64,000 nt of DNA, from NCBI GenBank assembly GCA_036785375.1, contig JAWMAR010000531.1, forward strand, positions 744,001 to 808,000, given 5' to 3'. Below the pieces are notes generated by a model, which saw nothing but the letters and a program-made list of their open reading frames with translations, was not told where the DNA came from and did not search any database. Shown piece after piece: positions 3,862 to 63,708 of this stretch. This DNA is from Leucoraja ocellata (lineage: Eukaryota). Every line of letters starts with the position of its first letter. Positions within the stretch are counted from its first letter, which is position 1. A program made the translations under genes and the position numbers.

Positions 3862-3934
3862 GAGTCTGAAGAAGGCTCGAGAACCAGCGTTGCTGCCTGT
3901 CCCGCTGAGTTACTCCAGCATTTTGTGTCTCTCT
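3862..3934 (+). mobile_element. Minimal Penelope 3'-end insert with 13-bp TSD
   Basis: GTCTGAAGAAGG...CCCGCTGAGTTACTCCAGCATTTTGTGTC, flanked by TTGCAATATTTCA at 3849-3861 and 3935-3947. Confidence 0.7.
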
Positions 3935-4134
3935 TTGCAATATTTCAAGTTACTGTATTTCGCATTGCGGTTGCTGGTTTGTTTATTAGCTGTGAAACTC
4001 TTCGATGTGTAGCCCCATTATGGTTGAATGGTTCATATATTGCAATGCTTTTACTCTCAATTCTGAAATGAATTGTATTGCCTATGACAAAACTTTCTAT
4101 GATGTCCACCTGACCTGGGAAAGCATCAGCATTT

Positions 4135-4536
4135 TTATTTTTATTTTTATTTATTTAAATATTTTATTTATTAGAAGTAATGTACATTACAGTAATATAA
4201 GCCCAAAATAACATAATACATTTCCTGTACTACTTCTTGTTTTAAACTTTAAAAAGAAGGAAAGTAAAGAGAGTTAGATAGGATAGTAAGTGCGTGAAAG
4301 AGTGATCAAGAGAGACCCATAGAAACGTAAAACACGAAAAAGAGTTAAAAAGAAAACCAAAGAAAAAGAAAGCGAAAAATAGAGAACAGAAGATATAAGA
4401 AAGTAAAATAAGATAAAAGGGATATACCTACTTCGTATCTTTACACACCCCTCACCAGGTCCTGAAACCATTTGTTTTCAAAGTTATGTTGCACCCTATA
4501 CTTGTAATAAGTCGATAAATGGAGACCAAATCTTTT
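4135..4536 (-). mobile_element. 5'-truncated L1/Tx1-clade LINE with 17-bp TSD
   Basis: GGAAAGCATCAGCATTT at 4118-4134 and 4537-4553. Minus strand starts KIWSPFIDLLQV* (ORF2 C-terminal motif), then a 3'UTR and an A-rich (TAAA)n tail. Confidence 0.75.
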
Positions 4537-5349
4537 GGAAAGCATCAGCATTTCAAATAGACATATACAATTTTAAACAATTAAGTGTTTTAAAAGGAAA
4601 AATAAAGTTCAGACATCAATACAAAGCTTTCTGAACTACGGTCTTTCTTTATAAATTAGAAAATCAAATAATTGTCAATGAACTAGTTGTCCAGACTGGT
4701 TGGTCTTTTAAAACCGTGGTAAATCTTACAAAAGCAGTGGTATTTTATCCAGAGCTGCTGCTCCCAAGATATTTACAATTCATTTGAATTGTACTTGTGA
4801 GGGTTTGAAACTAGATTGTTTCTTCCCGTGAATCGATGGATGAGTCGCTGTCAAACACCACAGTCTGTCTGAGCAGACATGCTGGGGGCTCATTCCATTG
4901 CTTTATGTATGAAGAATATCCAGTCTTGAAAGCAATTCAGCCAACTCAAAACTGTTTTTCTGTGGCTGTAGACATAGATTAAAACAAATACGATTGGCTG
5001 TCAAAACAATTAAGATTTGGTTGTGCAGAAATTAAATGCTTTATAATCTCTTTGAAATTCCATCCCTTCACCCCACTCCTCTGCTGCCAGAATTAGCAAG
5101 GTTAAAACAATTGAACTGTAAAATATTATGGAGTAGACATGAACATTGGGCCTTTTTCTGTGCCAGCAAAATGTGCTCATTGTATTGTTCCTACTTCCCA
5201 GGTGTCCATTCATAGCTTTATTGGTTGCAATATTTCAGGTGATCTAACAGGCACCTAGTAAATGAAATAAGATTTCATTAATAAGGACTTTTCCACCCTG
5301 GGAGAACTTCAGTCCAATTGCTACTCTGGGAGGAGAAAACAAATCGTAG

Positions 5350-5790
5350 TGGCTATTGTTGTGGCTAACATTGTAGCCCTATGGAGAGAGCACTTTCTTT
5401 AGACCACTGCCACAACGGTTACTGTGGGACTCCCCTCTCACCAACTGCTGATGCTTCCTTTGCTTTGTCCGCTTTCAATTTCTCTCATTTTCTGTCCACT
5501 TTGCCTCTTTCCCCCACACCCCATCCACCACCGCCACTCCAACTCCCCCGGACTTGCAACATACTCCACCTTGGAAGTACTCGGCAACTGTGGGAGAGGA
5601 GAAGGCGATGGGATGGGGTGCGGACAAAGCGAAGGAAGAGCGGCAGTTGGTGAGAAGGGAAGGAGCCCCACGGTGACCGAGCGCATCCTGATGTTGGCAG
5701 CAGTCTTAGGAAAGTGCTGCCCAACTGTGGCTACAACATGAATCGCAACGACAGCCACAGCGTCTGGTGAGGAAGGGCTCGCTGGTGCAG
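5350..5790. repeat. Inverted-repeat element related to the internal part of the 37208-38065 transposon
   Basis: Arms ~5350-5434 and ~5665-5757 are diverged reverse complements. Core CAACATACTCCACCTTGGAAG recurs in reverse at ~37648-37668. Confidence 0.55.
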
Positions 5791-5989
5791 AGTTTTAAGA
5801 ACAAAGTGTTGGAATAACTCTGTAGACTGAATCAGTCTGAAGACGTGTCCCATCATCGCCTATCCATGTTCTCCAGAGATGCTGTCTGACCCGCTGAGTT
5901 ACTCCAGCACTTTGTGTCCTTTTGAGTATTAACCATAATTTGCAGTTCTTTCAATGATAATATATTTCTTGGTTAAATGTGAGCTTGAA

Positions 5990-61007: not shown

Positions 61008-61387
61008 GTATGCCAAATTACATTGCTCGGGCTTCTTGCTAGAGATTTTGTAACGTTGTGACGGTCTCAGCCTAAAAGGATTTGGCTGTTTTGTAAACAA
61101 ATTTAGGGTCTTGTGAGCTGACATTGCAAAATGCTGGTTCCTATTGTACTGTTAAATGCTGTAACATTGTTTGAATTTGTCATGGACTTTTTTTTTTAAA
61201 TGTTCAAATGGCAATGTAGGACCTTGCACAAGCAGGAAATGGACTGCCTGGAATTTTGCACTGGATCTTTATTTTGTACTCTTTCAGTACGTTGAAGCTT
61301 GGTTTCCTCATGCTTACTGTGATTATACGTTGGTAAATACAGTCTTTTGGTTAACATCAAAGTAATTGTTGCCAAAAAGGGTACTAG

Positions 61388-61715
61388 TATCATCAAAAAC
61401 CCAGGCCGTGCTCTCTTTCACTTCTACCATTGGAAAAAGGTATAGGAGTCTGAAAGCCATGGCCACAAGGTTCATGAATAGCTTCTCCCCAACAACAATC
61501 CAGCTCTTGAACACTGCACAACACTAATCAATGGACTATCTTTACTTGCACTAAGTACTTGGGATTTTTCTTTTCCACACTAGTATTTGGGTTGTTAGTT
61601 TACTGAATGTTGTGCATTAGATATTCGTGTATTGTGTCACGGGCATGTTATGTTGTCGCAAATAAGAATGTCATTGTTCTGTTGACAGTGCCTATGACAA
61701 TTAAACGCTCTTGAC
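61388..61715 (+). mobile_element. Rex1/Babar-like LINE 3' end in RPLP0 intron 6
   Basis: LLPLEKRYRSLKAMATRFMNSFSPTTIQLLN, then a 3'UTR ending GACAATTAAACGCTCTTGAC. Confidence 0.7.
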
Positions 61716-61729
61716 AAATGTTTTCACAG

Positions 61730-61870
61730 GGAGTCCGCAATGTGGCCAGTGTGTGTCTGCAAATTGGTTATCCAACCATAGCCTCGATACCACATTCTAT
61801 CATTAATGGTTACAAGAGGGTGCTGGCCATCGCTGTGGAGACAGACTACTCCTTCCCATTAGCTGATAAG
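61730..61870 (+). CDS. RPLP0: RPLP0 exon 7 (final exon lies beyond the window)
   Basis: [51 protein letters not shown] sites. Confidence 0.98.
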
Positions 61871-63434
61871 GTAATGGTGGACAAGTCTTGGTGTTGAATT
61901 CCAGCGGTTCAAATGTAAAGAGATGAATTGATTTGGATGTTGCTGATTCTTGAAATTATGGATGAGTAAGCTCATTCAACCCAATATAGGTATTGTGTTC
62001 TGTGATACTGCAATTTCCCCCATGCAGCACATAAGTGGTTACTGTTTTTCTTTATGCCACCTCCGTGGTAATTGGAGTTCTGTTCAGTCCATTCTGAATA
62101 TAACTTTTATGTGGATGTTGCTGCAGAAGTCAACATTTCTTGCCTTATAATTAATTGCCTATGGAAAATGGAGAGTTGCTGCAGTTGTTGTGTAATAGAC
62201 CCTCGTTTGTAGCCACTCCGACATATTCCAGTATTTAGACTTGGTGACCATGAAAAGCATTTATGTTTCCCTCTGACTCAAAGGGGACCTTGCAAATGCT
62301 ACCCTCTTGTACCTCTGACCATAGTGCCCCTGGGTAGAACTTGTGGATTAGGTAGGTACCTTCAGAACTTTTTAGACAAATAGAGCATGGAAACAAGCCC
62401 TTCGGTCACCATATCTGCTCATCACTATGCCAATCTAAACAAATCCATCACTGTGGCCTGCCTGTCCATATGTCTGTCTATATGTTCCTTAAATATTACA
62501 AATTTGCCTGCTTCCGTCACCTTGATCCAGGCCACCACCAACTCTTTAATTTTAAAGCACGTCTCAAACCAAAATGTCACCTGTACATTTCCTCCACAGA
62601 TACTGCCTAGCTTGCTGAGTTCTTCTGGCTCTTTATGTTTTACTCAAGTTGCGTCACACATATTTTAATCTTCCCCTCGCTCACCTTGAACCTATGCCCT
62701 CTAGTATTTGACGTTTGCACCCTGCTTTTATCTCTAGCTTTCAAGATTTTGGACACTTCGATCGGGTCACTCCTCCATCTCTAAACCTCCAGCTCTCGTA
62801 TATCATACAAATTGCAGCTACAGTGTGCTACTGCTGCAGAGAATGAATGTAATGTTAATCCAACCGGCTCCTTTGTCCTTTGCCCTGCACTCTATATTTC
62901 TTTAGTGTTTGAGCTACATGAATCTGGGCACTTGTCAAATAGTTCTTTATTTTTGGTATCATCACGGGGGGGGGGGAGGGGGGAGTGGTGGAAAGGCTCA
63001 CTGCATTATAGTTGGCATGTGACCTTTACTTGCTCTTCAGGTTACCAGGTTCAATTGTGAATTGCCAAGTTTCTCATTAATTATATGACCTCTGTTTTGT
63101 TGTTGGTGAATCTAGTTATGGCAACGCTTTTGAATGTAAAGTTGGTGATTAGACGCCTGCATTTTAGTGTCCTGAGCCCATGATATTTATGGGCATGTTT
63201 GAACAGTGCTGATCGTCATTTGTCAGATGAGCTCTACTGTTTGACACCATTCTGCTTCATTATTTGAAGATGTTCACCACTGAATATAACACTCCTTGAT
63301 CTTGTTTCCACTTTAACCATGGCCCATTGTTCATCATGACTATGACTAGATTGATGGGGTAGGAGAGTTGAATTTTTATGCAAGGTGACACCTGAACTAG
63401 ACGACTGAAATATTAGCCTACCTATGCAATCCGT

Positions 63435-63708
63435 TTGCATTACTCGTTATCACCTTCCCCACATCCAACAATGGACCATTGTGGGCTCCACCTTTCCTGG
63501 TCTCTGCAGACTTTGATCTGTTTTTTTGCACCATTGTACCTTGTCATATCGCTCGGTTCCCTCGCCTCTGTCTCTCAGTCTGAAGAAAGGTCTCAACCAG
63601 AAACGTCACCTATTTATTTTCTCCAGTGATACTGACTGACCTGCTGAGTTACTCCAGCTTTTTGTGTCTATCTTCGGTCTAAACCAGCATCTGCTGTTCC
63701 GTCTTACA
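63435..63708 (+). mobile_element. Penelope-type pLTR fragment with hammerhead-like motif (~63580-63607)
   Basis: CAGTCTGAAGAAAGGTCTCAACCAGAAACGTCACC followed by GCTGAGTTACTCCAGC...CCAGCATCTGC. Confidence 0.65.

What the first reader, a model, noticed from the sequence alone, without database searches (positions are those of the whole stretch)
3862..63708. Dispersed family of tiny hammerhead-ribozyme-bearing Penelope inserts
Seen: the motif CTGAAGA-A-[4-bp stem, 4-nt loop]-GAAAC-GT(C/T) recurs. It is intact at ~10384-10420(-), ~19840-19875(-) and 54085-54112(+), near-intact at 63580-63607(+), and decayed at ~3865, 5836, 10035, 15630, 17265, 25970, 30881 and 54396. Stem II stays paired while its sequence varies (GGGT/GCCC, GGGT/ACCT, AGGT/ACCT; loops TTCG, CTCG, TTTG). 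Established: CUGANGA...GAAA...UH is the hammerhead core, and Penelope-like pLTRs are known to carry minimal type I hammerheads whose palindromic helix III (here ACGU) favours dimeric cleavage. Inference: the PXN and RPLP0 introns carry several such motifs, mostly decayed on the sense strand (the near-intact 63580 copy is sense in RPLP0), while the intact PXN copies are antisense. Caveat: helix I is only ~2 bp plus a weak extension, so activity is unproven.
Basis: partly seen in the sequence, partly recalled or inferred. Interest (0 to 1): 0.72.

Follow-up and report, generated by a model that had tools for sequence, protein, structure and literature searches.

The report
Penelope retrotransposon stubs carrying minimal hammerheads
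These short repeats are the clipped ends of a known kind of jumping gene (Penelope-like) in what is likely a skate or ray genome; they carry the small self-cutting RNA motif already described for such elements and decay like neutral DNA, and the one oddity is that many begin right at the motif's front edge.

Summary
The motif is real and is the published minimal hammerhead of Penelope-like elements (PLEs). The window holds 26 pieces. They are 5'-truncated ends of a Neptune-type PLE: the copy at 10321-11072 still carries the GIY-YIG end, and RT+GIY-YIG copies and pLTR-ORF tandems lie elsewhere in the genome. One exact intact-core pattern matches 88,485 times genome-wide (control 0). Stem II 'covariation' is CpG decay: A-U association OR 1.93 against 1.78 for a non-pairing control, and core-killing G12A copies (17,816) are as common as harmless C11.1U copies (15,141). 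There is no strand bias in PXN (19 sense, 19 antisense; intact cores 5 and 3), and 54085 is intergenic. Helix I is 2 bp, the hammerhead fold is not the predicted monomer fold, and cleavage is untested. One odd point: 18 of 42 young copies start within 7 nt of the core and almost none at the cleavage site, which suggests the element's RNA starts there. The scan has reported this family and that oddity before, on this and other genomes. Low interest.

The parts
54079..54177 (+). Young solo pLTR stub with a fully intact minimal hammerhead (core 54085-54112, predicted cut after C54112); between PXN and RPLP0
   Evidence: 98% identical over 99 nt to the 3' end of the RT+GIY-YIG copy L031; 11-bp target-site duplication; many 100%-identical copies elsewhere
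54400..54493 (+). Young stub truncated inside the core (no CUGA)
   Evidence: 15-bp TSD
10321..11072 (-). 5'-truncated Neptune-type PLE copy: linker Zn-finger and GIY-YIG end (10525-10971), pyrimidine-rich 3' UTR, hammerhead core 10415-10388 (G.U at 10.1-11.1), pLTR
   Evidence: tblastn 71% over 184 aa; 77% over 140 aa to the L031 ORF; 9-bp candidate TSD
19776..20052 (-). 5'-truncated copy with the last ORF codons, 3' UTR and core 19871-19844 (A-U at 10.1-11.1, from two independent changes)
63446..63706 (+). Older-subfamily copy with 3' UTR, core 63580-63607 (A x A at 10.1-11.1) and tail; sense in the last RPLP0 intron
9905..10128 (+). Decayed copy with 3' UTR
   Evidence: 14-bp TSD
3863..3939 (+). 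Stub with an internal deletion removing GAAA and the cut site
5802..5952 (+). Stub with partial inverted 5' piece; core deleted in stem II/GAAA
6960..7154 (.). Head-to-head inverted pair of young pLTR pieces joined at stem II, one arm with tail
   Evidence: 9-bp TSD
11977..12115 (.). Inverted pair without the hammerhead part
15568..15661 (-). Stub, U4C change in the core
17165..17301 (-). Stub with tail, G12 changed to U
25904..25999 (-). Decayed stub, 3 core changes
29595..29818 (.).
30875..30991 (+). Stub truncated inside the core, with tail
37307..37454 (-). Decayed stub with partial inverted 5' piece
40828..41047 (.). Inverted pair, both cores broken
52200..52359 (.). Inverted pair lacking the 5' half of the core
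55494..55649 (.). Inverted pair lacking the 5' half of the core
62560..62648 (+). Old decayed stub in the last RPLP0 intron

Best explanation
The repeats are 5'-truncated 3' ends (pseudo-LTR stubs) of a Neptune-type Penelope-like retrotransposon, and the motif they carry is that element's minimal hammerhead, which likely cuts only with help and is decaying neutrally in the inserted copies. Shown: the motif sits 100-230 nt behind the stop codon of an RT + GIY-YIG ORF and again, in partial tandems, about 160 nt ahead of the next ORF's ATG. Inserts end at two points about 35-40 nt apart (the PLE 'tail'), have 9-15 bp target duplications and are often head-to-head. Inferred from the anole Poseidon element: the PLE protein nicks DNA and starts reverse transcription inside the pLTR at those two points on uncut RNA, and most cDNAs stop early. 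About half of the young intact-core copies stop within 7 nt of the core, most likely because the RNA begins there. Inferred: selection on the motif acts only in source elements; a lone genomic stub has a 2-bp helix I, no partner and a competing fold, so it would rarely cut host RNA.
For: PLE link: window 10525-10971 matches the GIY-YIG end at 77%. The L031 ORF has RVT_1 (E 2.6e-7), GIY-YIG (E 0.0013, below Pfam's cut-off), a DKG motif and a CX4CX2C linker (clade features from PMC8557442). 8 of 30 copies retrieved with the ORF's N-terminal part have a same-strand intact core 360-371 nt upstream of it. The motif fits the published consensus CUGANGAH-G..C-GAAA-palindrome-UH (supplement of PMC4209133). 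3' ends: 32 of 54 at +85..+99 and 20 of 54 at +125..+135. Neutral decay: G12A 17,816 against C11.1U 15,141; pairing OR 1.93 against control 1.78. No strand bias in PXN (19:19). Only 1 of 54 young copies starts near the cut site (9 of 389 profile hits at columns 35-37), as expected if uncut RNA is the template (PMC11167929). ViennaRNA gives stem II a probability of 0.08 or less and helix I about 0 in 6 of 6 folds.
Against: Cleavage was not measured. Clade assignment rests on motifs, not a tree. The core is invariant across five subfamilies, but the downstream pLTR is nearly as conserved, so selection for catalysis rather than for a promoter or RT signal is not isolated. G12A copies exceed C11.1U copies by 1.18-fold, which could be context or mild selection against active cores. 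In RNA of a related species the single-cell runs lay 4-5 times more reads on one strand; the strand was not calibrated. The cap-G test of the start-site idea was inconclusive.
Confidence: 0.85

Rival explanations
1. The motif descends from a hammerhead but no longer cuts in this lineage. It is kept because it overlaps the pLTR promoter or an RT/RNA-binding signal.
For: Helix I is only 2 bp, and in the youngest subfamily it is U.G plus G-C, with a U.G closing stem II. The 2-bp examples in the published alignment are two G-C pairs. The monomer folds differently. The downstream pLTR is about as conserved as the core. Naiad PLEs spread without hammerheads (PMC8557442), and anole HHR mutants still insert in vitro (PMC11167929).
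Against: 0 of 11 core positions vary among five subfamily majorities, while the UTR upstream varies from about 100 to 230 nt and the ORF end falls to about 60% identity. The three majority changes in helices I and II all keep a wobble pair (weak evidence). The anole motif also looked inert until protein was added.
Confidence: 0.3
2. One reading: the copies are active enough to cut host pre-mRNA, so intact ones are purged from the sense strand of introns.
For: Inside the window the only two intact-core PXN copies are antisense (2 of 10 against 0 of 8; Fisher p=0.48). A slight excess of G12A. An uncalibrated strand asymmetry in single-cell RNA of a related species.
Against: Over the whole PXN gene, sense 5 of 19 and antisense 3 of 19 have intact cores, and a perfect young copy is sense in intron 1 (G000:C531:731139). 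The intact-core 63580 copy is sense in a highly expressed gene. No read ends pile up at the cut site (libraries poorly suited to show this).
Confidence: 0.07
3. The roughly 95-nt stub is an independent SINE-like or retrozyme-like element copied from its own small or circular RNA, not a truncation product.
For: It has sharp 5' and 3' ends, TSDs and a huge copy number.
Against: The stubs are 98-100% identical to the pLTR of ORF-bearing copies, with no foreign head, and every subfamily seen has longer members. 21 of 42 young copies extend 118 nt or more upstream. Ends do not sit at the cut site, as a ribozyme-made monomer would require, and there are no tandem arrays in the window.
Confidence: 0.08

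Closest known systems
[quoted passage not shown]
   Same: Type I core, extra base after A9, G10.1-C11.1, palindromic 15.1-16.1 without loop 3, position in pLTRs of fish Xena/Poseidon/Neptune elements, mostly single dispersed copies from truncated PLEs, low predicted monomer activity.
   Different: No cartilaginous fish appears in their Table S1 or Figure S3 as read (supplement file 1 could not be searched). Helix I here is a weaker 2 bp. The count here is 88,485 exact matches against about 4,000 (coelacanth) and 9,000 (Xenopus) found with a different descriptor.
Neptune-clade EN+ Penelope-like elements (PMC8557442, passages; PMC3846280, passages)
   Same: RT then C-terminal GIY-YIG with CCHH, CX2-5CxxC linker, partial tandems, inverted 5' copies, 30-40 bp tail, solo pLTRs.
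   Different: Placement was not tested by phylogeny; Nematis shares the linker motif. The sharp 5' end at the ribozyme edge is not described in the passages read.
Anolis Poseidon element PAc (Frangieh et al. 2024, PMC11167929; read parts 1-2)
   Same: Two internal RT start points that make the tail; uncut RNA as insertion template; no RNA ends at the cut site.
   Different: PAc is Poseidon clade and its ORF starts inside the hammerhead; here the ATG is about 160 nt downstream. Protein-assisted cleavage was shown for PAc and is only inferred here.
Canonical type I hammerheads and non-LTR retrozymes (Rfam; bioRxiv 10.64898/2026.07.22.740005, passages and Discussion read)
   Same: Same catalytic core; linked to PLEs.
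   Different: No Rfam hammerhead model hits at E<=10; no long helix I or loop contacts; dispersed, not tandem arrays.

Membership tests
EN+ Penelope-like element | RT domain with upstream DKG motif | tested here: met
   L031/L022 ORF, 688 stop-free aa, RVT_1 E 2.6e-7, KPADKGG
EN+ Penelope-like element | [quoted passage not shown] | tested here: met
   IYC..C..C..IYIGET plus two His; Pfam GIY-YIG E 0.0013, below the curated cut-off; window copy 77% identical
EN+ Penelope-like element | Partial tandems forming pLTRs, inverted 5' copies, 30-40 bp tail, variable TSD | tested here: met
   8 of 30 tandem junctions; 6 inverted pairs in the window; two 3' end classes; TSDs of 9-15 bp
Neptune clade | CX2-5CxxC motif in the RT-EN linker (absent in Penelope/Poseidon) | tested here: met
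   C-X4-C-X2-C in L031 and window 10525-10971; definition
Neptune clade | Phylogenetic placement of RT (against Nematis) | not tested
   no reference sequences were on hand
PLE minimal hammerhead | CUGANGA, GAAA and UH core | tested here: met
   4 of 26 window pieces; all 5 subfamily majorities
PLE minimal hammerhead | Extra base between 9 and 10.1; G10.1-C11.1; palindromic 15.1-16.1 | tested here: met
   all met at 54085 and in 4 of 5 subfamily majorities (the fifth, n=11, has a CpG-type change in the palindrome); G10.1-C11.1 is lost at 10415, 19871 and 63580
PLE minimal hammerhead | Helix I (3-5 bp in most published cases, 2 bp in a few) | tested here: inconclusive
   2 bp only, U-A or U.G plus G-C; the published 2-bp cases are two G-C pairs
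PLE minimal hammerhead | Compensatory change in stem II | tested here: not met
   OR 1.93 against control 1.78; only a one-sided U-A to U.G change between subfamilies
PLE minimal hammerhead | Self-cleavage as dimer or with protein | not testable with these tools
   needs an in vitro assay; one search shows no end pile-up but cannot decide
Canonical type I hammerhead (Rfam models) | Match to an Rfam hammerhead model | tested here: not met
   none among 23 hits at E<=10
Non-LTR retrozyme | Tandem monomers delimited by hammerheads | tested here: not met
   pieces are dispersed or inverted in the window and in 264 kb around it, with one two-copy duplication; insert ends do not fall at the cut site

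The most novel reading that the evidence does not exclude
The element's RNA starts 2-3 bases ahead of the hammerhead core (Inr-like TCAGT), so the ribozyme is the very 5' end of the transcript, which is why helix I is only 2 bp, and cutting would remove the cap with about 30 nt. The roughly 95- and 130-nt stubs are then the PLE equivalent of strong-stop cDNA, primed inside the 5' pLTR and run off the RNA's 5' end, left in the order of a million genomic records.
Probability: 0.25. Interest if true: 0.55.

Novelty: new member of a known kind. Interest (0 to 1): 0.2.

Why it matters
As a ribozyme finding it is ordinary: hammerheads in PLE pLTRs are published for fishes, amphibians and reptiles, and this extends them to a probable skate or ray at very high copy number. 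The useful part is the record of insertion ends. How PLEs copy themselves and what their hammerhead does are open questions, and a very young, very abundant family whose inserts start at the ribozyme edge and end at two fixed points offers a direct test by 5' end mapping and an in vitro RT and cleavage assay. Nothing here points to an effect on PXN or RPLP0.

Tried and rejected
Rfam scan: no hammerhead hit; the miRNA hits are fold-back inverted pairs or other hairpins. Poseidon clade, my first reading, was dropped once the linker motif was checked. Stem II covariation was rejected. Intron strand bias was rejected for PXN; the RNA strand asymmetry stays uncalibrated. Ribozyme-defined insert ends were rejected. 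A search for a second family with a longer stem II found 535 matches, and the 100 listed look like indel variants of this family; a generic descriptor on 864 kb gave 37 hits, 36 of this family, and 0 in reversed controls. Splicing at the CAG just before the core (as in D. virilis): no such joint among the 15 joints shown, 122 not shown, so it is undecided. Cap-derived G before the stub: 5 of 21 at -3 (background 23%) and 11 of 22 at -2 (11 of 20 after removing two more duplicates; background 33%, p=0.035), so inconclusive. No run on record as RNA was listed as a holder. Lunse et al. 2017 (PMC5785218) is not held; it was seen only as cited in PMC6765202. Literature searches for shark, skate or elasmobranch with Penelope or hammerhead and for Penelope-like with strong-stop found no paper describing this family or the 5' hot spot. 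The library lacks most subscription papers and Repbase.
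Full report
Observation. The motif is at every site named. With one mismatch it occurs 17 times against 6.9 expected, and no shuffle reaches 17. A profile built from window copies finds 26 pieces in the window, about 20 insertions, six of them head-to-head pairs. 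Four pieces keep all 11 core bases (10415-, 19871-, 54085+, 63580+). Only 54085 also keeps G10.1-C11.1. Rfam has no hammerhead hit at E<=10.

Host context. Paxillin and LIM domains mark PXN on the + strand, with its stop near 44174. Its first exon lies at G000:C531:684668, 59 kb before the window, and joins exon 2 in frame. RPLP0 is also on + (ATG 57446; last exon just past the window). So 63580 is sense in the last RPLP0 intron, and 54085 and 54396 lie between the two coding regions. The host is probably a skate or ray; that is my recall from the repeat and the 3.4-Gb genome, not a tool result.

What it is. The pieces are ends of a Penelope-like element. The 54085 stub is 98% identical to the 3' end of a copy (L031) with a 688-aa stop-free stretch holding RVT_1 and GIY-YIG. 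The window's own 10321-11072 copy carries the GIY-YIG end (77% identity). A CX4CX2C linker points to Neptune rather than Poseidon by the definitions in PMC8557442; earlier scan notes prompted that check. Of 30 copies retrieved with the ORF's N-terminal region, 8 have the layout upstream piece, pyrimidine tract, hammerhead, pLTR, tail, ATG. Inverted 5' copies, tails and 9-15 bp target duplications are present. All of this is the described PLE anatomy (PMC8557442, PMC3846280; passages). The motif fits the published min-HHR consensus, including the extra base after A9 and the ACGU palindrome (PMC4209133).

Abundance. One exact pattern with intact core and stem matches 88,485 times (reversed control 0). 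Sixty 10-kb stretches at round coordinates on large contigs hold 303 pieces in 600 kb, about 1.7 million if representative, with inverted pairs counted twice and some duplicated loci included.

Is the structure under selection in these copies? No. Counts at the 10.1-11.1 pair are G-C 88,485, G.U 15,141, A x C 3,313 and A-U 1,093. The odds ratio for A with U is 1.93. For A with the neighbouring, non-pairing G12A change it is 1.78 (17,816 and 1,190). The confidence intervals overlap, so copy age explains the association. The core-killing half of the CpG mutates as often as the harmless half, slightly more (1.18-fold). At the level of source lineages, 171 of 389 hits spanned the region and five clusters of 11-48 copies were kept. 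None varies at the 11 core positions; two of four loop positions vary; three changes in helices I and II keep a wobble pair; and 5 of 44 non-diagnostic downstream positions vary. The UTR upstream varies from about 100 to 230 nt. This is compatible with selection on the motif in active elements but does not separate catalysis from other pLTR roles.

Strand bias. In the window, 2 of 10 antisense and 0 of 8 sense PXN pieces have intact cores (p=0.48). Over the whole gene the split is 19 sense and 19 antisense, with 5 and 3 intact cores, and one fully intact young copy is sense in intron 1. In RNA of a related species (most reads 90-95% alike) the pLTR is abundant as a passenger: 94% of laid oligo-dT reads run on into unrelated sequence, and no ends pile up anywhere. 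Two single-cell runs lay 4-5 times more reads on one strand, but the strand was not calibrated and internal priming could cause it.

How it likely works. Helix I is 2 bp. In six folds stem II has a probability of 0.08 or less and helix I about 0, because the GAAGG segment pairs downstream. Published min-HHRs do not cut as monomers and cut poorly as dimers (PMC4209133). The anole PLE hammerhead cuts only with its protein and is dispensable for insertion in vitro (PMC11167929). Insert 3' ends here fall in two groups, 32 of 54 at +85..+99 and 20 of 54 at +125..+135 from the core, matching two internal RT starts and the tail. Only 1 of 54 begins near the cut site (+28), so the template was uncut RNA. 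I infer a protein-helped or dimeric ribozyme that matters, if at all, in source transcripts, with genomic stubs as debris.

The odd point. Among 42 non-duplicate young copies with an exact core, taken in order along contig C1, 18 start within -7..0 of the core, 3 between -12 and -68, and 21 at -118 or further (18 of 21 in 8 of 118 nt, p about 1e-18 under a uniform model; ends are from local alignment and good to a few bases). The sequence there, TCAGT, resembles an initiator (recalled consensus) and also ends a pyrimidine tract like a 3' splice site; in D. virilis an intron ends at that spot. A transcription start, giving strong-stop-like cDNAs, is my preferred reading. An RT stall at the C-rich tract is the main alternative. 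A test for cap-derived G was inconclusive. Earlier scan notes report the same hot spot; they are not independent support.

Verdict. Real, correctly identified as a PLE hammerhead, a new member of a known kind. Interest 0.2.

Noticed in passing
L037-L042 (window-relative about 64,500-114,000; G000:C531:808,500-858,000): The last RPLP0 exon and about 25 kb around it are tandemly duplicated (second last-exon copy near window-relative 89,250; 96-98% identity).
   Followed up: no
window-relative about 119,000-194,000 (L042-L046, L053-L055): A roughly 14-kb unit is repeated about five times at 95-98% identity, each with a CpG-rich patch, where GCN1 might be expected by human gene order (recalled); content not identified.
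   Followed up: no
window 52575-53206 and 53328-53990: Long fold-back, MITE-like inverted repeats directly upstream of the 54085 stub; they give the strongest (spurious) miRNA hits in Rfam.
   Followed up: no
window 24377-25381 and 27478-28440 (+): Long open frames (334 and 320 aa, the second proline-rich) inside PXN; probably large alternative exons.
   Followed up: no
window 54085 and 54400: The intact core at 54085 and the cut-site half of the 54400 copy lie 311 nt apart on one strand and could in principle form a half-active dimer if that intergenic DNA were transcribed.
   Followed up: no
L207-L266 5' junctions: Many stubs have 1-9 untemplated bases between the target duplication and the element, often GAAG-like snippets that resemble the element's own start.
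   Followed up: partly
window 679-1933: LTR-retroelement-like RT/RNase H fragments and an internal repeat at the window's start.
   Followed up: no
window 58200-58810: Tc1-like transposase fragments in an RPLP0 intron (my reading of the translations).
   Followed up: no
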